Virus record (IMG/VR): IMGVR_UViG_3300021256_000064 | Coordinates: 128,001-144,402 of that record | Direction: 5' to 3' (one strand) | Origin: a virus | DNA: 16,402 nt | In this document: positions 996 to 13,455 of the stretch, one piece after another | How the letters are laid out: the number at the start of each line of letters is the position of its first letter | Numbering within the stretch: position 1 is the stretch's first letter | Program-made: the position numbers and the translations under genes | Notes under the pieces: generated by a model | What the model saw: the letters and a program-made list of their open reading frames with translations, nothing else | Told to the model about the DNA's origin: nothing | The model's database searches: none

Positions 996-1481
996 TTAAA
1001 AATCAAGACCTTGATATAAAACTCTTTGATTTCTACTGCCACGTAATTCAAGTGTAATATCTCTTTCTGCATCAATATAAGGGCCGTCTATTAGAACATC
1101 AATTTGAGACAATATGTGATTAATTTTATCATTATGTTTCTTTTTTAAATCTTCTAAAAGGTAGCCTGTCCAAACAAAAATTTTAATTTGCGGGAAAGCA
1201 GCTCTTACACTTGTAATAATTTTATCAACTTCTTCTAAATTTTCTTCACATAAGGGTTCTCCCCCTAAAACAGAAAAGTTTCTTGTAATATTATTTGCAC
1301 AGATTGCTTTAATAATTTGTCCTCGTATATCAGTGGGTACCTCTTTGCCGCCATTAAAACTCCATGTTTCAGGATTTTGACAACCTGGGCAATGATGTGG
1401 ACAACCTTGTGTCCAAAATGAGACGCAAGTGCCAGTCCCATTTGCGAAGTCATTTTTTATTAAACCTGCATATCTATCCAT
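996..1481 (-). CDS. nrdG: anaerobic ribonucleoside-triphosphate reductase activating protein (radical SAM)
   Basis: 161 aa. N-terminus is GLIKNDFANGTGTCVSFWTQGCPHHCPGCQNPETW, i.e. the NrdG-type CxxxCxxC radical-SAM cluster motif. GAGGAG RBS upstream. Stop is TAA. It sits immediately downstream of nrdD and the FNT gene. Confidence 0.9.
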   Translation of the reverse strand: MDRYAGLIKNDFANGTGTCVSFWTQGCPHHCPGCQNPETWSFNGGKEVPTDIRGQIIKAICANNITRNFSVLGGEPLCEENLEEVDKIITSVRAAFPQIKIFVWTGYLLEDLKKKHNDKINHILSQIDVLIDGPYIDAERDITLELRGSRNQRVLYQGLDF

Positions 1482-1483
1482 TT

Positions 1484-2044
1484 TTATTTACTTAACTCCT
1501 CAATTAATATTGCTCCTAATGAGTTACCAAGAACAATAAGTATAAATTTAAAAATATTTATTAAAGACAAATTGAATAACAGATAAGGAAAATCTGCTAT
1601 ACAATGCTCTGCTCCAATAAGAATAAAAATCATAATCGCAAAAATTGTTAATATAGTTACTTTATTTTTTACAGCAAAATGAATTAACATTCCACAGAAA
1701 GTAGCGTTTACAAATAAAGTTAATGCACTTTTGGTAAATTTAGTTGCACTAGACGCAGATATAATATTAACAAAATCTGGATTTCCTAAAGCATAAAGAC
1801 CTATTGTAGCTGCTATTGCAATACAATTAAATAATAATATTGTAATTAAGATTTTTTTCTATTCTAATGTTGGTTTAGAATAGAAACCAATTTTTCCAGT
1901 AAATAAATTTAATTGCATATTAATTATTGTTAAAAGTCCAAAACTAAATAATAAAGCTCCTAAAGCAGGGATTGAAGATTGAAGGTTAATAATAACCCCC
2001 AATCCAATTAAGATTCCCGCGAGAGCCGATTTTTTAACACACAT
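1484..2044 (-). CDS. formate/nitrite transporter (FNT)-family channel-like membrane protein, 186 aa with one in-frame TAG at 1859..1861
   Basis: Track ORFs 1859..2044 and 1484..1690 are in the same frame. I translated the gap and it contains a single TAG and no other stop. The joined protein is a hydrophobic multi-TM protein. It has the FNT hallmark motifs NLFTG (compare FocA GADLFTS) and GAEHCIADF (compare FocA GFEHSIANMF), plus a C-terminal LGNSLGA. It is shorter than FocA (~285 aa). The start overlaps the nrdD 3' end by 11 nt. Stop is TAA, 2 nt before the nrdG ATG. Confidence 0.55.
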
Positions 2045-4361
2045 AATCTTCCACTGCTCCCATATAACGACGTTGTCCTCTTAGTAAAGATGAATGCTTA
2101 AATCTCATTTCTGTTTCCTGTTGTTTTCCAAGATTAAAGGCTGTTTTATAATCTCCTGTTAAATAGCCTGTAACTCTACGCAATCTCTATATATTTGTTC
2201 CTCCGCACATTGGACATTCATTATTAATTTCTCCAGTGTATCCGCAATTTAAACATAAATCATTAGGAACATTTAATGCGAAATAAGGAATATCTTTATC
2301 CATAGCATAATTAACAATTTGTTCAAGTGCATCAATATTATGTAAGATTCCACTATCTAATTCTACATAAGTAATGCATCCTGCATTTGAATACCCAGTT
2401 AGTTGACTTTCAATATCAATCTTTGTAAATGGGTCAATTTCTTTCCAAACTGGAACGTGAATACTGTTAGTAAAGAACTCTTTATCACTTACATTAGGAA
2501 TTTCTCCATATTTTTCTTTAAATTTTTTCATGGCAGTATAGCATAAATTCTCAGCAGGAGTATAATAAACACCAAAGTTAAGTTTATATTTTTGTTTATA
2601 TTCCGCGCATCTGTCTTTAAATAATTGTTCAATACGTTTGGCAAGTTCCATACCTTCATCTGTTGTATGGTCTTTACCTATAAGTATTTGAAGAGTTTCT
2701 GCTAAGCCAAGTTGACCAAGAGCTAATGTGCCATGTTTAAGCGCGGATCTAATTCCTTCTTCAGGTTTATAACCTAACATGGTATTATTTTCCCACATAA
2801 ACTTTGCAGATTCAGGAGATTGAGAACAGATATATTCAAATCTTTCAATTAACATATCTTTAGCTTCATTAATTTTTTGATCAAGTAATAACATAAAATA
2901 TCCAATAATATTAGGATCATTTATTCCAATATTTTTTGTCCAACGATAATTAGCTTCCATAGCAAGAGTTGGAAGAATAATTGTTACAGGACAAATATTA
3001 CCGCGCCCGTCTTTACGCTGTGGATTTACACCTGGTTCTACATTTATATCTGCTCCATTAGCCGTACGGCATCCCATTGTAGAGAAATATGTAGTTGGGT
3101 CATTTTTGTCATAACCTGCATTTCCGCTCCAATCAACATTAGCGTAATTTGGATATAATCTTTTTGCTGTTGATTCAAGAGCTAATCTGTATAAATCATA
3201 ATTTGGAGTTCCTGGTTCTTTATTAACTCCTTTCATTACTTGGAAGATTCCACAAGGAAAAATTGATGTTTTATGGAATTTACCATTTCCTTTTATACTG
3301 CCTTCAAGTAATGCTTTAATAACCATTCTTCCTTCTGGAAGAGTACAGGTCCCATAGTTAATTGAAGTAAAGGGTAATTGATTGCCACTTCTACTTTGTA
3401 ATGTATTAAGATTATGATACATACCCTCAACCGCTTGTTGAAGCTATTTAACTGTCATATCCATAGCATATTGGTATGCTTTTTTATATTTTTGATATTC
3501 TAAATTATCAATACTAAAATTATCAGAATATTGGTTACGAATATTTATAAATTTTAAATGGCTTCCATTATTTTCTTTATTATAATATAAATCTGATGAT
3601 AATTCTATATATCTTAATCCATCAATATAATGTTTCCAAAAACTTTTTCTTACATAAGGAACCATTGTCCAATCTAAGTGAGTTGCTGATACGCCTCCAA
3701 ATTGTTGTAAACTTTGTAATTGAAATATTACTGCAACAAGTTGAAAAGCTGTATTAATTGAGTTTGCTGGTCTTACGTCTGTTTGACGAGTATTAAATCC
3801 TTTCGCTAATAAATCATCAAAAGGCACTGATAGACAATTATGCATACCAACTGCATATGTATCTAAATCATGAATATAAATTTCATTATTTAAATGATTT
3901 TCTCTAGCCATTTTTGACATACAATTATCAAGAGCGTATTGTTTGGAAATAATTGAATCAAATTCCCCGCGGCGACCACCAAAGGAATGTTCATCAACAT
4001 TAGCATTTTGATTATCAATTTTAGAACCTGCAAGTTTTTCTTGCGCTGCCCGCATCATTTTATTATTCCAATTTCTTTCTCTTGTTCTTTCTTCGCGATA
4101 TTTAATATACGCTTTTGCTACATCTTTTCTTTTTGTAGACATTAATCCATTTTCTACTAAGTCTTGAATTTCTTCAATAGATAATGGATGAGTTTCTTCT
4201 TCACAGTAGCCTTCAATATAATTTGCTATATTCTATGCTTTTGTTTCAGCATATTCAGAAATCTACCCATCTACTGCTTTAAAAGATTTTAAAATTGCAT
4301 TTTTAATTTTTTGTGTATCAAATGGCATTTGTCTACCATCTCTTTTGATTATATAAATCAT
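2034..4361 (-). CDS. nrdD: anaerobic (class III) ribonucleoside-triphosphate reductase, ~775 aa, with four in-frame TAG codons (4263..4265, 4233..4235, 3444..3446, 2187..2189)
   Basis: Track ORFs 3444..4142 and 2187..3422 are in one frame and joined by TAG. Upstream of 4142 the same frame continues through two more TAGs to ATG 4361..4359, with GGAGGA RBS. The N-terminus MIYIIKRDGRQMPFDTQKIKNAILKSFKAV...EEIQDLVENGLMSTKRKDVAKAYIKYREER is an ATP-cone that aligns with E. coli NrdD (VMKRDGCKVPFKSERIKEAILRAAKA...INEIQTAVENQLMS...ARAYIEYRHDR). Downstream of TAG 2187 lie the glycyl-radical motif LRRVTGYL and the NrdD C-terminal tail NLGKQQETEMRFKH. The C-terminal Zn cysteines are CLNCG...CPMCGG. Final stop is TAA 2034..2036. 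Confidence 0.85.
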
Positions 4362-4429
4362 AATATATCCTCCTAGTTAGATAAAATATTTTTAGGGTTA
4401 CTATATATTATAAAAAACTTTTAATAAAA

Positions 4430-4819
4430 TTAATCATTTTTGTCCAATGTATTATTCTCATCTTTAGGGTAATGGAAAGTCTTTTTTCCTTGACGCCATT
4501 CTAAATCACACATTTCTGGAAATTCTTCTTCCATTTGCAGCGCTCCTAATATATTAAATGCAGCAGCTGCTAAATGATCCTCATCATCCCACCCCGCAAT
4601 ATATTTAGCTAAATGTCTTAAAGCTGAATCAAGAAAAGACGACAATGGAATCCCTTTTAAATAATTAAAACGCCCATATTTTTTTGCGCCCTCTTCATAG
4701 AGCTTAGATAAACGTAATAATGCCATCATGGGGAGAGAGAGCATATCTCCCTTCCCTTCATGCATGTCTCTAACCGCTCCTGTGTTGAACTAAGTTCTTT
4801 CTCCAGAATCTTTTATCAT
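4430..4819 (-). CDS. putative phage dNTP pyrophosphohydrolase-like protein (dATP/dGTP diphosphohydrolase N-terminal-domain family), ~129 aa with in-frame TAG at 4790..4792
   Basis: The track ORF starts at an internal ATG (4765). The same frame extends through TAG 4790..4792 to ATG 4819..4817. That ATG is preceded by AAAGGAG (complement of + 4829..4835) with an 11-nt spacer. The resulting N-terminus MIKDSGERT*FNTGAVRDMHEGKG matches what I recall of the conserved N-terminus of this phage family (DSGxRxEFxTGAxRD...GKG). The family call is from memory and should be checked. Later in the protein are YEEGAKKYG and DDEDHLAAAAFNILGA. Stop is TAA. Confidence 0.55.
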
Positions 4820-4824
4820 AAATA

Positions 4825-7800
4825 TTAAATCTCCTTTTCTGTTGAAATTCTTTCATGTTCTAATGTAATATTTTTGTTTGTTACATTTGTAATTCTATAT
4901 AACTGATGTGTTGGTGTTGATTTATAAGTTTTTGCTACAAAAGTATCTTCTCGCCTAAATCCTGTAATTAAAACTTTTGTACCACGAGAGAACCAGCCTT
5001 TTTCTAATACTTTTTTAGTACCATCTGGTTGTTTTTCAGAAATTTGACGATTAAACATAGCATAATATTCTTTTGTAAATTTTACATTTACAACTCCATC
5101 TGTCGTTAAAATAGCGATAGATGCTTTAGTATTATTTTTACTAATAATTGTTCCTGCAATCCTATATAATTTAAAGATTGGAATTTTTCTATCTCCTCTT
5201 TTAAAGAAATAATCAACTACTGGTTCTTCTGATAAAGATGAAAAATCTACAATACCATATTTATATTTATCAATATTAGCTAATTCATGTTCGTGATAAT
5301 AAAAACACAAACTTTCCATTTCCCACGCAGAAATATTTCCAGTTGCATATTTATTCCATGTTTCATTAAATAATAAATTATTATATTGATTTAATACTTC
5401 ATCTTGATTCTCTTTTAACCAGTTTCTTGCTTCATCCATTTCTTTTTGATAGATTTTATCCCATTTAGTTTGAAGAATACAAGTAATTCCATTAATAACA
5501 TCAAGTTCATTTAAATCATAATATTGTGAATAAAAATTTAACGAACCTTCATCAAATATATAATATTTACCAACTTTTTTATTATCTTTAAGAAATTTAT
5601 TAAATACAAATACTTGTTTTTGTTTATTTAATTCTTCTGGTACTAAACCACTTTTTAATAATCCATTAAAATTTTGTAAAGTTAATCGCTTTTTTGGATC
5701 ACAAACTAATGATACATAATATGCCATAATTGCATATCTTGGATTTTCTTTACAAATTTCTGATGCCCAATCATTATCAACCTTATCAAAAGCTCCTGAT
5801 TTAATTAACGAAATCATTTGAGTTTTATTTAGCGGGCATCTATTCATAAAATCAATAATTCCAGTGTATGGGCGGCCGCCAATAATCTTATCAATAACTG
5901 GTCCACCAATTTTATTAACACCTTTTAATCCAAAAAGAATTTCATTATTTTCTTCATCTGGTTCAAAACTGTATCCAGATTTATTAATATCAATTAATGA
6001 TACTTTAATTCCTTTTGAAGTTATATCTCCAATAGCTTTTGCTAATTTAGAATAATCAGTAGATTTATCTTTAGTATTGTCCTCATCATCATCTTCATCA
6101 TCATCTTCAAGAGAAGCACTATTAATGATTAGACATGCAGTATTCCAATAAATTGGATTCCAATTAGTCGCTAAATAAATTGTCTGAACTCCAATAAAAG
6201 AATATGCAAGAGCATGAATGATAGAGAATGAATATCCCATCTGAGGACCAACACCGCATTTCCAAACATACTTACCAAGAGATGGACTAGAAGCTGTATC
6301 TAATATCTTTTGATGTAATTCTGGAATTTTTGCCATTTGTTTTTTACCAACAATTTTACGTGCGGCATTAGCTTCTTTTAATGAAAAATTGCAAATGTTT
6401 TCATCCATCAACATTCTCATTAACTGCTCTTGTGATGGTGGAACTCCATAAGATTGTTTGAAATATGGTTCAATAAATGTTTGTTCTTCTTTTGTTAAAC
6501 CTGCTCGATTCATTTCTTGATACCATAATGAAATATTATTTTTATAACGAATATATTTTTCCATAGGTGTCTCTTCACCCTTTTCAGATGTCATAAGACG
6601 CATTAAGCCATTGGCATCCGCCATTTCAAGAATATTAGTTGGTTTAATTTTCTTTGCGGCTTGTGATCCCACATCTGAATCAAACTGGAAAACATTTAAG
6701 ACACTATTATTTTGAAGAGCTTCCCATATTTTTTTATTCTCTAAAGGCAAAACTTCTGGATGAAGATATTTATTATATACCTCTCTTAAAGAGAGGTCTT
6801 TATCAATTTTATTATTTTCCTGAAGAAGTTTAATTGTTTGAACAATCTTATCCTGAACTTCTGTTACCAAGAAGTCATATTTTGTCATACCGCATGCTTC
6901 ACATTTATGAAGATCCCATTGAGTTATAATTTCACCTTTTGGAGTTTTCATAAAACATCCAAATTCGTATGGATCTTCATCAAAAAGAATAACACCAGAA
7001 GCATGACTAGACCTTTTATTTATCAACCCTTCAATTGCCATCGCAATATCTAATAAACCAGGATATAAATTAATTTCTGAAATAAAAGGCGCGATAGGTT
7101 TTCTATCTTTATCTTTATTCCCATATACAACATCTTTAAGAGGCCATAAAAAACCTCTCTCACTTGGAATTAAAGAAGATAAAAACTGAGCTGTATCAAC
7201 ATCAATCCCGTCTGGAAAATCTTCTGAGCGATAACCGCGGCAAGCTGTTAATACTGCTGATTTAGTTCCTTCTGTACCAAAAGTCGCAATAAGTGTGCAA
7301 CCAAGGTTTTTTCTACTTAAATCATCAATATCTTTATTGAAATTTTGACCTCGTTCTTCTTTTATCTTTTGAAGAATCAATGGACGTTTTGATGGACAAA
7401 GATCTAAGTCTATGTCGCCTAACTCAACACGTTCTTTATTAAGATAACGCCAGAACGGAAGATCCCATTTAATTGGGTCAAGCTGAGTGATGCCTAAAAG
7501 ATAATGATTTAATCCTGAGCAAGATGAACCACGCCCCGCACCAACTGTACTTCCGCACTCCCAAAAAAGATCAACATAATGCTGAAGAGTTATTGGATAA
7601 CTAAACATATTAGTTCCAAGTTTTTCACTAATAGTTTTTTTAATATCTGCTTCTTCTTCTAATCGAGAAAGATATTCTTTTTTATATATATTTTTATTTA
7701 ATAAATTTTGTAAACATTCATTTACCCAATATCTTTCATATTTATCATCAGAAGATAACATATTTCTTAAAGTTGGATAAAATTCTTCAATATTCATATC

Positions 7801-8784
7801 CCTAGATATTTTTGCGTAAGGATAAAAATTTTTACTTTTAGGATAATCTTTTACCTTTACTTTTGGAATTGTCTGTTGATGTCTAATATCATAGTTCTCA
7901 ATCTTATTATAAATTTCATATGAATTATCTACTAATTCATCATAATTTAATTCCGATGGTATAATATTTTCTTTTATGTCATTTTCATCTTGAAGATACG
8001 CATATTCATAAAATGCATCAACTTCACGTTCTCCGCCTTTTGAGTTAAGATATGCTTTATGTACATATCTATCTTCTTTTTTAAGATAATGTGCATCTGA
8101 TCCAAGAACCATTTTACAATCAAAGGCGGCAGCTACAGCTTTAAGACGTCTATTAACAATAACCTGTTCGCTTGATTGACCTGGCGCACACTCGATATAA
8201 AAGTCATCACCAAAAAGACGCTTACACCATAAGATAAAATCTACAATATCATTATGGGCTTCAGCGGCTCCTATTTTGTCATCATGCTTTTCTGCTTTTA
8301 TAAGATTTAAAAGTTGAGAAGAAACTTCTCCACCAAGACAAGCTGTTGTTGCAATTAAACTATTTGGATATTTATTAACAATCTCTTCAAGTTCATCATA
8401 TGTTGTAGGAACTCTTTCAAGACCTCTATCCCAATAACTATTCATCCAAGCTCTTGAAGAAAGCTCTCTTAATGCTCTGAATCCAATTTTATTTTTTGCA
8501 ATCAAAATAAAATGATAATATTTTTGTCCCATCTCTCTATCAGGAGTTAAATATATTTCATTTCCTAATGCAACTTTAAAATCTGGATGCGTCTTTAAAA
8601 TTTCTTGAGCATAGAAGTTTGCTTGCGGAGCACCGCTCAAACATTCATGATCGGTGAGAGCTATCCCACTTAAACCAATTTCTATTGCTCTATCAATAAG
8701 TGCTGGAATTTTATTAATGCAATCTAATAATCTTATGTTTGAAAATTCTGAGTGAGAATGCACCTCAAACCTTTTGACCATCAC
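4825..8784 (-). CDS. dnaE: DNA polymerase III alpha subunit (DnaE-type, PHP domain N-terminus), 1319 aa
   Basis: One uninterrupted ORF. The N-terminal PHP motifs are EVHSHSEFS...IALTDHECLSG. Size is typical for Pol III alpha. An acidic insertion DDDEDDDEDN lies in the C-terminal region. There are no in-frame TAG codons. Stop is TAA. RBS is AAGAGG. Confidence 0.9.
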   Translation of the reverse strand: MMVKRFEVHSHSEFSNIRLLDCINKIPALIDRAIEIGLSGIALTDHECLSGAPQANFYAQEILKTHPDFKVALGNEIYLTPDREMGQKYYHFILIAKNKIGFRALRELSSRAWMNSYWDRGLERVPTTYDELEEIVNKYPNSLIATTACLGGEVSSQLLNLIKAEKHDDKIGAAEAHNDIVDFILWCKRLFGDDFYIECAPGQSSEQVIVNRRLKAVAAAFDCKMVLGSDAHYLKKEDRYVHKAYLNSKGGEREVDAFYEYAYLQDENDIKENIIPSELNYDELVDNSYEIYNKIENYDIRHQQTIPKVKVKDYPKSKNFYPYAKISRDMNIEEFYPTLRNMLSSDDKYERYWVNECLQNLLNKNIYKKEYLSRLEEEADIKKTISEKLGTNMFSYPITLQHYVDLFWECGSTVGAGRGSSCSGLNHYLLGITQLDPIKWDLPFWRYLNKERVELGDIDLDLCPSKRPLILQKIKEERGQNFNKDIDDLSRKNLGCTLIATFGTEGTKSAVLTACRGYRSEDFPDGIDVDTAQFLSSLIPSERGFLWPLKDVVYGNKDKDRKPIAPFISEINLYPGLLDIAMAIEGLINKRSSHASGVILFDEDPYEFGCFMKTPKGEIITQWDLHKCEACGMTKYDFLVTEVQDKIVQTIKLLQENNKIDKDLSLREVYNKYLHPEVLPLENKKIWEALQNNSVLNVFQFDSDVGSQAAKKIKPTNILEMADANGLMRLMTSEKGEETPMEKYIRYKNNISLWYQEMNRAGLTKEEQTFIEPYFKQSYGVPPSQEQLMRMLMDENICNFSLKEANAARKIVGKKQMAKIPELHQKILDTASSPSLGKYVWKCGVGPQMGYSFSIIHALAYSFIGVQTIYLATNWNPIYWNTACLIINSASLEDDDEDDDEDNTKDKSTDYSKLAKAIGDITSKGIKVSLIDINKSGYSFEPDEENNEILFGLKGVNKIGGPVIDKIIGGRPYTGIIDFMNRCPLNKTQMISLIKSGAFDKVDNDWASEICKENPRYAIMAYYVSLVCDPKKRLTLQNFNGLLKSGLVPEELNKQKQVFVFNKFLKDNKKVGKYYIFDEGSLNFYSQYYDLNELDVINGITCILQTKWDKIYQKEMDEARNWLKENQDEVLNQYNNLLFNETWNKYATGNISAWEMESLCFYYHEHELANIDKYKYGIVDFSSLSEEPVVDYFFKRGDRKIPIFKLYRIAGTIISKNNTKASIAILTTDGVVNVKFTKEYYAMFNRQISEKQPDGTKKVLEKGWFSRGTKVLITGFRREDTFVAKTYKSTPTHQLYRITNVTNKNITLEHERISTEKEI
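6082..6110 (-). repeat. short tandem codon repeat (catcatcatctt-like) encoding the acidic DDDEDDDED tract inside dnaE
   Basis: Direct reading of + 6082..6110 (tcatcatcatcttcatcatcatcttc). It is low-complexity and in frame. Confidence 0.5.
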
Positions 8785-9029: not shown

Positions 9030-9605
9030 TCAAATTTTATTTAAATCTTTTTGAGTTGGTATTTCTAATGCTTTTTTATGAATTTCATATCTTTGAGTAT
9101 AAGAATTTAATCTAATATATTTATACCATTTCTTTTTAGAATGAATACATTTATATACAGCTTGTTTTGAGATACCTTTTATATTACAAAAATCAGGGAT
9201 AGAAATAAAATCATTATCATTTTCTTGATTTATTTCTATATTATATGGAATAAAATTTTCTTTTGACATTCTTGGAACAAAATCATTTTTTGATATTGTA
9301 TTATTAATATTAAAATCATTTTCTTTATAAAGAATCCATTCTGGTTCTTTTAATAAAATAGTTGATTTAATGTTTTTAAAAGTTTGATTTAATTTAGGAT
9401 GATATTTTGTAATTAAAAAATATTCAAAACTATTCATTTCTAGCTCATTATTACAATTAAAATAATAAATTTCAAAATTTTTTAAATTTTGAAATTTATT
9501 ATCTTTGCTATGTTCATATAGCCGTCTTTTTAAATTATTTGTTTTTCCAATATATATAATTTTATTCTTTTGAACATATTTATAAATATAATATTTATTA
9601 ATCAT
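9030..9605 (-). mobile_element. free-standing GIY-YIG homing endonuclease gene (191 aa)
   Basis: N-terminus YIYKYVQKNKIIYIGKTNNLKRRLYEH is the GIY-YIG motif. The basic C-terminal tail resembles a NUMOD/HTH DNA-binding tail. The gene is intercalated between the Dda-like helicase and dnaE. Stop is TGA. Confidence 0.8.
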
Positions 9606-11673: not shown

Positions 11674-13455
11674 TTAAAAGAAGTATTTAGCAGAATCTAC
11701 AATTTCAAAATCCTACATAATAAGCTGTGGGTAGACGCAACCATTCCACTAATTTTTATTACATTTACAAATAGCGTTTACCTCTAAATATCCTGTTGTT
11801 GTAAATTTGGTAATTTCTTCTTCAGTTCCATTAAATTTAATAATAGATAATCCGTTAGGTAAATTAAATTTTAAAGTATTACTTTTCATAACTTTAAAAT
11901 TAGAATCAGTAACTTTAAAATTAATATTTACATAAGCTCTGTCTATATCTTGACCCCAATAATCATTCATATCTGCAATATCTAAAATGCGCTGATTGTT
12001 GTTTTCTTTTTCATTAAAATTATAATCAATTCTATAAATAGGTTCAACAGAGACATCTTCAAGAAGCTAATCAATCTTATAAAGAAAATCACTTATATGA
12101 TCTGCTTCTATACCAAGTCCCGCCGCATTGTCATGTCCCTATACATATAAAACTCCTGGACATTGTTCAAGTACTTCTTTAAAACTATTAATTCCAGTTT
12201 TTGTATATCCACGCATAGAGCCTTCATAAGTTGCTTTATCATTTCTATTAGTTTTAGTTAATAAACAACAAGGTCTTTGATATTTTGCCATAAATTTATT
12301 TGCAATTAAACCACGAATTTCAGAATCAATTTTATTAGGTTCTAATAAGAATAAAAGAATTTTATGGTCAAGCATATGATTAGTTTCAATCATTTTTTCT
12401 AACATAGCTAATCCTGCATCTTCTGCTCTTGTTTGTCTATTTTTAACATTCGTAACTGTTCTAATTGCCTGTAGAATTAATTTTTCTTTCTAACCTAATT
12501 TATGTCCACGCTTGTTTGAAATAACTTCTGTAAAAGCCTTATGTTTTAACATAGAATTAAAAAGTAAATTTTTCTATTCTATTGTTCCACTTCGAGTTAC
12601 AGCATTAATAAAAGGTACAATAAAAAATGCGGCGCCCATAGATGTACATCTCATATTAGGATCCGATGAAACATAATCTGCTTTTGATAAAGGAAATGAG
12701 TTTTTATCAATCATGTAGTCGATAAAAGGATTTTTAATATTCTATTTTTTGAACCCTTTAGTAATTAAATATCTAGTTTCAAATGAACGTAAAGACATCA
12801 TATCCCCACAGTTCCCTAGTGCAACCAAATCTAAAAAACCATCTGCTAATTTTATATCTAATTGATTATCAATATAACGACAAAATTGCCAAACAACCCC
12901 AACACCAGATAATTCCTTATTAGGATAATCTGATAATTGATTATTAATAATAATAGCATTTTCACTAATATGATCTGCTAAGTGATGATCTAAAACTAAT
13001 ACTTGAATATTTTTGTCTGTTAATATCTTATGATAACTATAATCATTACTACTTGAATCTGGGCAAATCACAAGCATTGGATTACGAGCTAATACAAAAT
13101 CAATACAATCACTTAATCCATGTTGTTTACTATCGTGCATATACCAATCTAAATGATTAACGACCCAAGTGGGAAATATCTTATATAAATAATTAATAAG
13201 AAGAGCTGCAGATGTATAACCATCACAATCACAGTCTACAATTACTAAAGCATCAGCATTTTCTCTTACAGTATTAATAATAGCCATTAAACCATTTTTG
13301 AGATTTGTTTCTCCTAAAGACAACGGGGAATTAATATCCTAATCAGATAGATTTACATAATGTAAAATTTCATCTTCCGCAATTCCTCTATTGTATAATA
13401 TTTGCTGTATTGTTGAAAAATTCTAATTTGGTTTATTTATTAACTAATATCTCAT
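11674..13455 (-). CDS. recJ: RecJ-like single-stranded-DNA exonuclease (DHH + DHHA1), ~593 aa, with ten in-frame TAG codons
   Basis: Track ORFs 12742..13323, 12139..12405 and 11749..11970 are all in one frame. The gaps between them, translated by hand, contain only TAG stops. These are at 13444, 13423, 13339, 12742, 12574, 12490, 12139, 12067, 11749 and 11713. The joined protein shows the RecJ N-terminus ILYNRGI, DHH motif I VIVDCDCDGYTSAALL, DHH motif III VLVLDHHLADH, FINAVTR (E. coli RecJ LNAAGR), and the DHHA1 motif *GHDNAAGLG (E. coli FGGHAMAAGL). ATG 13455..13453 is preceded by AGAGGAG. The final stop is TAA 11674..11676. The last ~25 codons after TAG 11749 are less certain. Confidence 0.75.

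What the first reader, a model, noticed from the sequence alone, without database searches (positions are those of the whole stretch)
2034..4361. nrdD is split into three listed or unlisted pieces and its ATP-cone N-terminus is missed by standard-code ORF calling
The ORF track shows only two fragments, of 232 and 411 aa. The true gene begins 219 nt further upstream at ATG 4361 and includes a full ATP-cone. It extends 150 nt past the second fragment to include the glycyl-radical loop. Standard-code annotation would call this a broken nrdD without its catalytic Gly. The reconstructed ~775-aa protein is a complete allosterically regulated class III RNR.
Basis: seen in the sequence. Interest (0 to 1): 0.5.

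Follow-up and report, generated by a model that had tools for sequence, protein, structure and literature searches.

The report
Intact phage nrdD; TAG encodes glutamate
The apparently broken anaerobic ribonucleotide reductase gene is intact, because this ~140-kb herbivore-gut phage uses the stop codon TAG as a sense codon, and comparisons indicate its clade reads TAG as glutamate rather than the glutamine reported for recoded phages so far.

Summary
Minus-strand frame 4361..2034 is one 775-codon gene ending in TAA. It is interrupted only by four in-frame TAGs (codons 33, 43, 306, 725), so there are five pieces, not three. It has a full ATP-cone, a full NrdD domain, a Cys4 zinc ribbon and the RVTGY glycyl-radical motif, and nrdG lies downstream. 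The window is the replication block of a distant SPbeta-like phage. It holds 18 in-frame TAGs in 7 of 16 genes, and no gene ends in TAG.

The new point is what TAG means. Public gene calls translate it as Gln (code 15). In the window's own clade, TAG sits in 26 of 164 conserved-Glu columns but only 3 of 80 conserved-Gln columns. All 11 TAGs of the terminase fall on Glu columns, including the inferred Walker B catalytic Glu. Distant NrdDs have Glu at codon 306.

A sister lineage of the same family shows the opposite pattern (Gln 23/53, Glu 0/103). One genome has 5 of 5 TAGs at Tyr.

No suppressor tRNA was found in about 93 kb of the closest 140-kb contig, so the decoding mechanism is inferred.

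The parts
2034..4361 (-). nrdD coding sequence: 775 codons plus a TAA stop at 2034-2036, read through four TAG codons
   Evidence: Translation; Pfam NRDD, ATP-cone and Gly_radical; 8p23 NrdD E=9.6e-113 over residues 4-756; 120 homologues up to 91% identical and full length
4369..4374 (-). Shine-Dalgarno AGGAGG, 7 nt upstream of ATG 4361
   Evidence: Read directly from the sequence
4083..4358 (-). ATP-cone domain (residues 2-93); contains TAG codons 33 and 43
   Evidence: PF03477 E=1.6e-20, profile 1-87 of 88
4263..4265 (-). In-frame TAG, codon 33
   Evidence: Close relatives alternate TAG with GAA. Glu is the commonest residue in distant NrdDs
4233..4235 (-). In-frame TAG, codon 43
   Evidence: Close relatives alternate TAG with GAA/GAG. 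Glu in both PDB NrdDs 8p23 and 9d3x
3444..3446 (-). In-frame TAG, codon 306
   Evidence: GAA/GAG in 81 of 81 related loci. Glu in 81 of the roughly 116 distant NrdD representatives (HSP identity <60%) listed at this position, Gln in 3
2094..4007 (-). NrdD catalytic domain (residues 119-756)
   Evidence: PF13597 E=6.7e-145, full profile
3069..3071 (-). Cys431 in TMGCRT, the candidate thiyl-radical cysteine
   Evidence: The motif is identical in the 8p23 alignment. The catalytic role is inferred from what is known of NrdD, not tested here
2205..2255 (-). Zinc-ribbon cysteines C703, C706, C716, C719 (CLNC...CPMC)
   Evidence: Aligns with CLDC...CPKC of 8p23
2187..2189 (-). In-frame TAG, codon 725, seven codons before the radical glycine
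   Evidence: CAA/CAG in most family members, but Asp in both PDB NrdDs and Glu as the commonest residue in distant NrdDs (18 Glu, 9 Gln)
2163..2177 (-). Glycyl-radical motif R729-V-T-G732-Y733
   Evidence: Aligned to RITGY of 8p23; PF01228; Gly in 83 of 88 representatives
1484..2044 (-). Formate/nitrite-transporter-family membrane protein (186 aa, one TAG at 1859-1861). Its ATG 2044 overlaps the end of nrdD
   Evidence: PF01226 E=6.8e-13; same gene order in L001
996..1481 (-). nrdG activase (161 aa, no TAG)
   Evidence: PF13353 E=3.9e-40 and Radical_SAM
11674..13455 (-). DHH/DHHA1 (RecJ-like) gene with 10 in-frame TAGs. Shows that recoding extends beyond nrdD
   Evidence: 10 TAG against 28 GAR codons, compared with 0 against 101 in DnaE, p=8.9e-7

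Best explanation
nrdD at 4361..2034 is an intact, expressed gene for an ATP-cone-regulated class III (glycyl-radical) ribonucleotide reductase. It sits in an nrdD / formate-channel-like / nrdG cassette in the replication block of a ~140-kb tailed phage from herbivore gut. The phage is a distant relative of SPbeta-like and Enterococcus phages with a DnaE-type polymerase.

The phage uses TAG as a sense codon and terminates only at TAA and TGA. In the window's own clade TAG most likely encodes glutamate, so NrdD residues 33, 43, 306 and 725 are Glu.

Shown here: TAG is a sense codon, recoding extends to other genes in the window, and TAG is statistically equivalent to Glu codons in this clade.

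Inferred, not shown: decoding by a dedicated tRNA with anticodon CUA that carries Glu. A plausible origin is tRNA-Glu(CUC) by one anticodon change, charged by the host GluRS. TAG is absent from DnaE, DnaB, primase, RecD, gyrase and ligase, and abundant in tail, terminase and lysin genes. This fits the published idea that recoded codons delay translation of later genes until a suppressor is available.
For: Gene integrity: 775 codons with no TAA or TGA, a strong RBS, and full-length Pfam and PDB matches across all four TAGs.

Recoding across the window: 18 in-frame TAGs in 7 of 16 genes. All 16 genes end in TAA (14) or TGA (2). On the closest contig, 193 TAGs lie in 47 of 117 ORFs. Treating TAG as sense also merges the DHH and FNT gene fragments.

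TAG = Glu:
- In the clade defined by protein identity to the window, TAG occupies 26 of 164 columns that are at least 80% Glu, against 3 of 80 Gln columns and 3 of 182 Lys columns. Real CAA/CAG occurs in only 4 of those Glu columns.
- Other genomes of the family give 0 of 103 Glu columns and 23 of 53 Gln columns. Fisher p=1.5e-11 for clade against residue.
- In the larger data set, TAG occupies 29 of 233 columns that are at least 95% Glu, against 3 of 125 Gln columns. CAA/CAG occurs in 1 such Glu column.
- Glu is the top sense residue at all 11 TAG columns of the terminase large subunit of the closest contig. It is invariant at three of them, including the second E of GGLMEE (PHROG terminase hit).
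- The DxE catalytic Glu of the GH25 lysin is TAG in one locus.
- At 13 of the window's 16 aligned TAGs, sense codons in the 14 most similar loci include GAA or GAG, the commonest sense codon at most of them.
- Distant NrdDs have Glu as the commonest, or co-commonest, residue at all four nrdD TAG sites.
Against: No tRNA with anticodon CUA was found. The search covered the window, about 93 kb of the closest 139.8-kb contig, and more than 430 family loci. About 46 kb of that contig was not read directly. Loci from relatives (L431, L436, L437) appear to cover roughly half of the equivalent region and also lack such a tRNA.

Codon 725 of nrdD and a few other TAGs sit in Gln-conserved columns (3 of 80; 11 of 206). 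So some Gln-like or mixed decoding is not excluded.

The columns come from related genomes and are not fully independent events. Locus typing used the same data as the test. The Walker B assignment rests on motif spacing, not on a structural alignment. There is no proteomic evidence.
Confidence: 0.8

Rival explanations
1. Ordinary genetic code 15: TAG is read as glutamine, as in crAss-like, Lak and other recoded phages. The Glu-aligned TAGs would then be tolerated Glu-to-Gln substitutions.
For: This is the only amber reassignment reported for phages with standard-code hosts and it has been validated by proteomics in crAss-like phages (title and abstract listed). Public gene callers already translate these genes with Gln. 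nrdD codon 725 is Gln in 63 of 81 relatives. A sister lineage of the same family clearly fits Gln.
Against: It would need dozens of Glu-to-Gln changes at conserved or invariant Glu columns made almost only through TAG. CAA/CAG, about 4.5 times as frequent as TAG on the closest contig (874 vs 193), appear in only 4 of 164 or 1 of 233 such columns. It would place Gln at all 11 TAG columns of the terminase, including the inferred Walker B catalytic Glu, and at the GH25 DxE Glu.
Confidence: 0.1
2. Mixed decoding: a suppressor tRNA is charged with Glu by a non-discriminating GluRS and only partly amidated by GatCAB, so TAG yields both Glu and Gln.
For: TAG occurs in some conserved-Gln columns slightly more often than GAA/GAG do (11 against 8 columns; 3 against 2). 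The family contains both Glu-type and Gln-type lineages. The likely hosts are low-GC Bacillota, suggested by the closest cultured NrdD in Thomasclavelia phages and by MAG bin labels. Such hosts commonly make Gln-tRNA by transamidation; this is general knowledge and was not tested here.
Against: The excess in Gln columns is small and has a simpler explanation: CAG-to-TAG transitions at sites that tolerate Gln-to-Glu. TAG at catalytic Glu positions argues that Glu is delivered efficiently. No tRNA or host genome was examined.
Confidence: 0.07
3. The TAGs are real stops, so nrdD is a pseudogene or is expressed as separate fragments.
For: Standard-code ORF calling yields fragments. No suppressor tRNA was found.
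Against: Zero TAA or TGA in 775 codons where about 49 are expected. Sequence conservation runs straight through every TAG. There are no start codons or ribosome-binding sites for the fragments. The same pattern occurs in 6 other window genes and 47 ORFs of the closest contig. No gene uses TAG as its terminator. TAG positions are shared by relatives.
Confidence: 0.02

Closest known systems
TAG-recoded ('code 15') gut phages: crAss-like, Lak, Garnet, Topaz and others (Borges et al., bioRxiv 10.1101/2021.08.26.457843; Peters et al., PMC9523058)
   Same: In-frame TAG in essential phage genes. TAA and TGA kept as stops. Uneven use of TAG, with replication genes largely free of it and structural and lysis genes rich in it. 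Suppressor tRNAs detectable in only about 40% of such genomes.
   Different: Those phages read TAG as Gln. The authors state they only observe TAG-to-Gln and TGA-to-Trp in phages whose code differs from the host's. Here TAG tracks Glu codons. This phage lineage (DnaE polymerase, SPbeta-like tail genes) is not among the eight clades named in the passages of that preprint read here.
phAss-1 / proposed 'Phassvirus' (OQ749652, 136 kb; Babkin et al. 2023, PMC10607447)
   Same: A gut phage of about 136 kb with nrdD and nrdG, in which many characteristic ORFs are broken by TAG.
   Different: GC is 44.5% against about 31%. NrdD is only 45% identical. It carries 36 tRNAs including three tRNA-Sup(CTA), and its TAGs fall on conserved Gln positions of TerL. 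The window's clade has one tRNA (Lys) in the 93 kb read, and its TerL TAGs fall on Glu positions.
Ciliate nuclear codes with UAG/UAA read as Glu, Gln or Tyr (tables 30, 6, 29 from general knowledge; multiple independent UAG reassignments in phyllopharyngean ciliates, bioRxiv 10.1101/2024.07.18.603678)
   Same: The same three amino acids (Gln, Glu, Tyr) are involved. Their tRNAs are one anticodon change from CUA. The reassignments appear in related lineages.
   Different: Those are eukaryotic nuclear codes, usually with TAA reassigned too. Here TAA is the main stop codon (14 of 16 genes), the system is a virus, and its host presumably uses the standard code.
Class III ribonucleotide reductase NrdD with ATP-cone (Prevotella copri, PDB 8p23) and phage T4 NrdD (PDB 1h78)
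   Same: Full-length alignment to 8p23 (residues 4-756, E=9.6e-113). It covers the ATP-cone, the TMGCRT loop, the Cys4 zinc ribbon and the R-x-x-G-Y glycyl-radical motif. nrdG is encoded nearby.
   Different: T4 NrdD (605-residue chain) matches only from query residue 289 onward (best stretch), i.e. not the ATP-cone region. The window's gene has a lineage-variable segment at about residues 240-300. A formate/nitrite-transporter-family gene is inserted between nrdD and nrdG.
SPbeta-like Bacillus phages and ~140-kb Enterococcus phages (YorL-type DnaE polymerase)
   Same: Genome size of about 130-140 kb. DnaE-type replicase about 40-41% identical over its full length. YomU/V/W-like tail proteins.
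   Different: Only distant similarity and no nucleotide match. Those phages use the standard code.

Membership tests
Class III (anaerobic, glycyl-radical) ribonucleotide reductase NrdD | NrdD catalytic domain over its full length | tested here: met
   PF13597 profile 2-562 of 562, E=6.7e-145. 8p23 aligned over residues 4-756.
Class III (anaerobic, glycyl-radical) ribonucleotide reductase NrdD | C-terminal glycyl-radical motif R-x-x-G-Y | tested here: met
   RRVTGYL aligns to the LQRITGYL segment of 8p23. PF01228 E=1.4e-9. Gly in 83 of 88 representatives at G732.
Class III (anaerobic, glycyl-radical) ribonucleotide reductase NrdD | Cys4 zinc ribbon preceding the radical loop | tested here: met
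   C703/C706/C716/C719 align with CLDC...CPKC of 8p23.
Class III (anaerobic, glycyl-radical) ribonucleotide reductase NrdD | Radical-SAM activase NrdG encoded with it | tested here: met
   Window 996-1481: PF13353 E=3.9e-40 and PF04055. It lies two genes downstream of nrdD.
Class III (anaerobic, glycyl-radical) ribonucleotide reductase NrdD | Enzymatic activity and allosteric regulation through the ATP-cone | not testable with these tools
   The ATP-cone is present (PF03477 E=1.6e-20). Regulation is inferred from the domain only.
Stop-codon-recoded phage (TAG as sense) | In-frame TAG inside conserved genes, with conservation continuing across it | tested here: met
   18 TAGs in 7 of 16 window genes. 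193 TAGs in 47 of 117 ORFs of the closest contig. Alignments continue across the TAGs.
Stop-codon-recoded phage (TAG as sense) | TAG not used as a terminator | tested here: met
   The 16 window genes end in TAA (14) or TGA (2).
Stop-codon-recoded phage (TAG as sense) | Phage-encoded suppressor tRNA with anticodon CUA | tested here: inconclusive
   None found in the window, in 93 kb of the closest 140-kb contig, or in more than 430 family loci. About 46 kb of that contig was not read directly; relatives' loci seem to cover roughly half of the equivalent region. Published surveys also find such a tRNA in only about 40% of recoded genomes.
Genetic code 15 (TAG = Gln) | TAG aligns with conserved Gln in homologues | tested here: not met
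   In the window's clade, 3 of 80 Gln columns against 26 of 164 Glu columns. TerL shows Glu at 11 of 11 TAG columns. The feature is met in a sister lineage (23 of 53 Gln columns, 0 of 103 Glu columns).
TAG = Glu reassignment (known only from ciliate nuclear codes) | TAG aligns with conserved Glu in homologues and interchanges with GAA/GAG among close relatives | tested here: met
TAG = Glu reassignment (known only from ciliate nuclear codes) | TAA reassigned together with TAG (as in table 30) | tested here: not met
   TAA terminates 14 of 16 window genes and never occurs in frame.
TAG = Glu reassignment (known only from ciliate nuclear codes) | Glu demonstrated at TAG positions in the protein | not testable with these tools
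   This needs metaproteomics or expression experiments.

The most novel reading that the evidence does not exclude
A monophyletic clade of ~140-kb herbivore-gut phages, which includes this window, reads the amber codon as glutamate. Sister lineages of the same family read it as glutamine, one genome reads it as tyrosine, and about half the family is not recoded. That would mean one phage family has reassigned the same stop codon to three amino acids. These would be the first non-Gln amber reassignments in phages, and would imply a natural Glu-inserting amber suppressor system.
Probability: 0.6. Interest if true: 0.85.

Novelty: new variant of a known kind. Interest (0 to 1): 0.62.

Why it matters
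Taken as originally stated, the finding is a textbook sign of a stop-codon-recoded phage, which is a known phenomenon.

What would be new is the meaning of the codon. Phage amber recoding has been treated as synonymous with TAG-to-Gln. Gene callers hard-wire this as code 15, and the published rationale is that GlnRS and TrpRS are unusually easy to hijack.

A clade reading TAG as Glu, next to Gln-type and apparently Tyr-type relatives, would have four consequences:
- The choice of amino acid in phages is labile, in a way that parallels ciliates.
- Public translations of these genomes would carry the wrong residue at every TAG, including catalytic glutamates.
- It would raise a concrete mechanistic question: which tRNA and which synthetase deliver Glu to UAG.
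- It would point to a natural Glu amber-suppressor pair, something genetic-code engineers have found hard to build because GluRS reads the anticodon.

Tried and rejected
Suppressor tRNA hunt. I used all 8 viral-contig scans, both metagenome scans, both genome scans and all 3 protein searches to walk outward from the window along the closest contig (IMGVR_UViG_3300021400_001206). This assembled contig positions 115441..139781 plus 1..68962, with zero overlap mismatches. Relatives' loci L431, L436 and L437 extended the coverage. ARAGORN, with and without introns, and Rfam found only a tRNA-Lys(UUU).

A tRNA(CUA) call in L074 was rejected as doubtful. It has C33 and weak stems, the locus has 43.5% GC, and it has no in-frame TAG.

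Taking 'Q' at the TAG positions of the 120 closest database homologues as evidence for Gln was rejected. Their DNA shows those Q residues are themselves TAG translated with code 15.

A union-find column method lost the key columns to alignment inconsistencies. It was replaced by MAFFT codon columns.

PDB and Pfam gave no match for the terminase, so the Walker B assignment rests on motif spacing and a PHROG terminase hit.

Megablast of the window against GenBank phages found nothing. The window's DnaB is not on record as an exact protein. The first genome and metagenome scans were wasted on low-complexity peptide patterns.

Pyrrolysine was considered and dropped. TAG tracks Glu columns, and no pyl genes were seen in the loci whose gene calls carried Pfam annotation or that I scanned.
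Full report
**1. The observation**

On the minus strand, the frame starting at ATG 4361 runs for 775 sense positions to TAA at 2034-2036. It is interrupted only by TAG, four times: 4263-4265 (codon 33), 4233-4235 (codon 43), 3444-3446 (codon 306) and 2187-2189 (codon 725). Minus-strand frames of this window carry about 0.06 TAA+TGA per codon (counts). A non-coding frame of this length would therefore hold about 49 of them, and this frame holds none.

The ATG is preceded by AGGAGG with a 7-nt spacer.

The one error is the count. There are four TAGs and five pieces, and two of the TAGs lie inside the ATP-cone.

**2. What the gene is**

Pfam gives a full ATP-cone (residues 2-93, E=1.6e-20), the complete NRDD profile (119-756, E=6.7e-145) and Gly_radical (639-734).

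The best solved relative is the ATP-cone-bearing NrdD of Prevotella copri (8p23, E=9.6e-113, aligned over 4-756). The following features line up:
- the TMGCRT loop,
- the Cys4 zinc ribbon (C703, C706, C716, C719),
- RVTGY, with G732 as the radical glycine.

G732 is Gly in 83 of 88 diverse representatives.

Downstream, overlapping the end of nrdD, is a 186-aa formate/nitrite-transporter-family protein. After it comes the radical-SAM activase nrdG. This is a complete class III ribonucleotide reductase.

**3. Context**

All genes in the window are on the minus strand. In order they are: DnaB-like helicase, a primase-like gene, DHH/RecJ-like phosphoesterase, T4 gp30.3-family protein, RecD-like helicase, GIY-YIG endonuclease, a 1319-aa DnaE-type polymerase, a MazZ-like domain protein, nrdD, the transporter-family gene, nrdG and several small ORFs.

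The DnaE is about 40-41% identical to YorL of SPbeta-like phages and to the polymerases of ~140-kb Enterococcus phages. Neighbouring loci encode YomU/V/W-like tail proteins. There is no nucleotide-level match in GenBank phages.

More than 590 related loci exist in IMG/VR, on contigs of roughly 130-240 kb. Near-identical phage contigs are binned into MAGs of many phyla from rumen, sheep, deer, goat and rabbit gut. The closest cultured NrdD (75.5%) is in Thomasclavelia ramosa phages.

**4. TAG is a sense codon throughout**

The window holds 18 in-frame TAGs in 7 of 16 genes: DHH 10, nrdD 4, and one each in four others. All 16 genes end in TAA (14) or TGA (2).

I assembled 93.3 kb of the closest contig (93.5% protein identity to the window) from eight overlapping loci, with no mismatches. 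It has 193 TAGs in 47 of 117 ORFs.

TAG use is strongly uneven:
- None in DnaE, DnaB, primase, RecD, gyrase or ligase.
- Many in the tape-measure protein (24), a 761-aa early-block ORF in the lysin position (17; not annotated), terminase (11) and tail genes.
- Within the window, DHH has 10 TAG against 28 GAA/GAG codons, and DnaE has 0 against 101 (p=8.9e-7).

This matches the published picture of recoded phages.

**5. Which amino acid?**

The 120 closest database homologues show Gln at three of the four nrdD sites. This evidence is circular. In the DNA of the best one (L001) those Gln residues are TAG codons that the gene caller translated with code 15. I therefore used only sense codons.

*First test.* I aligned 25 gene families from 82 genomes codon by codon. 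In the clade defined by identity to the window, TAG occupies:
- 26 of 164 columns that are at least 80% Glu (16 of 98 at 95% or more),
- 3 of 80 Gln columns,
- 3 of 182 Lys columns.

TAG is by far the commonest minority state in Glu columns. The next are Asp (8 columns) and true Gln codons (4 columns). In the other genomes of the family the pattern reverses: 23 of 53 Gln columns and 0 of 103 Glu columns. Fisher's exact test for clade against residue gives p=1.5e-11.

*Second test.* With 269 loci and 62 families, TAG occupies 29 of 233 columns that are at least 95% Glu, against 3 of 125 Gln columns. CAA/CAG appears in only one such Glu column. A caveat applies: locus typing in that run used the same data as the test.

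*Third test.* The terminase large subunit of the closest contig has 11 TAGs (identified by PHROG 2). Glu is the top sense residue at all 11 columns and is invariant at three. One of these is the second E of the invariant GGLMEE. From its spacing relative to the Walker A motif (FPRAYSKS) and the C-motif (ITTAG), this should be the Walker B catalytic glutamate. That assignment is by motif, not by structure.

*Fourth test.* The DxE catalytic Glu of the GH25 lysin is TAG in one locus.

*Fifth test.* In NrdD representatives from a 50%-identity-clustered library (HSP identity below 60%), Glu dominates at codon 306 (81 Glu, 3 Gln). It is the commonest or joint commonest residue at codons 33, 43 and 725. 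Both PDB NrdDs have Glu at 43 and Asp at 725.

For the window itself, sense codons in the 14 most similar loci include GAA or GAG at 13 of its 16 aligned TAG sites, and these are the commonest sense codons at most of them.

If TAG were Gln, dozens of Glu-to-Gln changes at constrained sites would have to have occurred almost only through the rarest Gln codon. I consider that untenable.

**6. Family picture**

A neighbour-joining tree of NrdD places the Glu-type genomes in one clade with the window. The Gln-type genomes form another cluster: L062, L070, L037, L042, L048, L049, L027, L018, L019, L072 and L073. About half of the family has no in-frame TAG in these genes.

L052 stands alone. All five of its TAGs fall on Tyr or Tyr/Phe columns. 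Three of these are at least 92% Tyr, and one is invariant (76 of 76).

**7. Mechanism**

The decoder was not found. The window has no tRNA. ARAGORN and Rfam searches of 93 kb of the closest contig and of more than 430 family loci found no anticodon CUA. The only exception is a doubtful call in a 43.5%-GC relative. The only tRNA on the closest contig is tRNA-Lys(UUU). About 46 kb of that contig (69-115 kb) was not read directly.

The mechanism is therefore inferred. The most likely decoder is a dedicated tRNA(CUA) carrying Glu, most simply derived from tRNA-Glu(CUC) by one anticodon change. Partial amidation to Gln is a minor alternative. A small excess of TAG in Gln columns keeps that rival alive (11 columns against 8 for GAA/GAG).

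**8. Comparison with what is known**

Phage stop-codon recoding is well described. Borges et al. state that they only observe TAG-to-Gln and TGA-to-Trp in phages whose code differs from the host's.

The 136-kb phAss-1 group also has a recoded nrdD/nrdG region. It is a different lineage, with 45% NrdD identity and 44.5% GC. It carries three tRNA-Sup(CTA) genes, and its TAGs fall on Gln positions of TerL.

Phrase searches for TAG or UAG reassigned to glutamate returned ciliate genetic-code papers and two unrelated ones, and nothing on phages or bacteria. That library is incomplete, so the novelty claim is provisional.

**9. Verdict**

As originally stated, the finding is an ordinary hallmark of a recoded phage. 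Its interest is raised by the evidence that this clade's amber codon means Glu, with Gln-type and Tyr-type relatives in the same family. I rate it a new variant of a known kind. My confidence is about 0.8 for Glu in this clade, about 0.6 for the three-way family picture, and near certainty that nrdD is intact.

Noticed in passing
window 1484-2044 (-): A 186-aa formate/nitrite-transporter-family membrane protein (PF01226, E=6.8e-13) sits between nrdD and nrdG, and its start overlaps the end of nrdD. The order is conserved in relatives (L001, L010). Some class III RNRs use formate as reductant, so a phage-borne formate channel in this cassette may supply it.
   Followed up: partly
L052 (IMGVR_UViG_3300028591_000104), nrdD and DHH genes: All 5 in-frame TAGs fall on Tyr or Tyr/Phe columns. 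Three are at least 92% Tyr, one of them invariant (76 of 76). This suggests a TAG-to-Tyr reassignment in this single genome.
   Followed up: partly
L042, L037, L027, L048, L049, L062, L070, L072, L073, L018, L019: A separate cluster of the same phage family uses TAG at conserved or invariant Gln columns (23 of 53 Gln columns, 0 of 103 Glu columns). This is the classical code 15 pattern.
   Followed up: yes
Proteins P0001-P0010 and similar; L001 10001-12307: Public protein predictions for this clade translate TAG as Gln through code 15 gene calling. If TAG is Glu, every such residue is wrong, including catalytic Glu positions.
   Followed up: yes
window 4430-4819 (-): A 129-aa protein with the N-terminal domain of dATP/dGTP diphosphohydrolases (PF18909, E=4.7e-17; MazZ-like) and one TAG, just upstream of nrdD. 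In L001 a guanylate-kinase-domain gene occupies this position instead.
   Followed up: no
L430 9440-9700 (closest contig, about 58.1-58.4 kb): A lone tRNA-Lys(UUU) at 9517-9592. Just before it is a 73-nt tRNA-like element with a perfect 7-bp acceptor stem and a canonical T-arm but no proper anticodon arm. After it come two GC-rich hairpins (z=-4.5) in an otherwise AT-rich genome.
   Followed up: partly
L170 601-3485; L436 1390-6307: RNA ligase, polynucleotide kinase, metallophosphatase and, in one relative, a Thg1-like gene lie next to the lysis genes. Together with the phage tRNA-Lys(UUU), this looks like a tRNA repair or replacement kit against anticodon nucleases.
   Followed up: no
window 4825-8784 compared with 11674-13455: TAG use is sharply gene-specific within one replication block. 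The 1319-aa DnaE has 0 TAG against 101 Glu codons, and the 593-aa DHH protein has 10 against 28 (p=8.9e-7).
   Followed up: partly
window about 3460-3640 (nrdD residues about 240-300): This NrdD segment is replaced by unrelated sequence of different length in the 91%-identical relative L001. It appears to be a hypervariable insert in an otherwise conserved enzyme.
   Followed up: no
L269-L348 (genome-contig hits): Whole phage contigs of this family (for example 139,570 bp) are deposited inside MAGs labelled Endomicrobiaceae, Ruminococcus, Mollicutes, Treponema, Bacteroidales and even E. coli. This looks like binning contamination and should not be read as host evidence.
   Followed up: no
PQ571309.1 62869-64981 (Thomasclavelia phage TR-TP1): The closest cultured-phage nrdD (75.5% identity) is annotated in two pieces with an HNH endonuclease between them, which suggests an intron or intein-type insertion.
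   Followed up: no
L074 13468-13540: This is the only ARAGORN tRNA(CUA) call in the family loci. It has C33 and weak D and anticodon stems, lies in a 43.5%-GC relative with no in-frame TAG in the aligned genes, and is probably spurious.
   Followed up: partly
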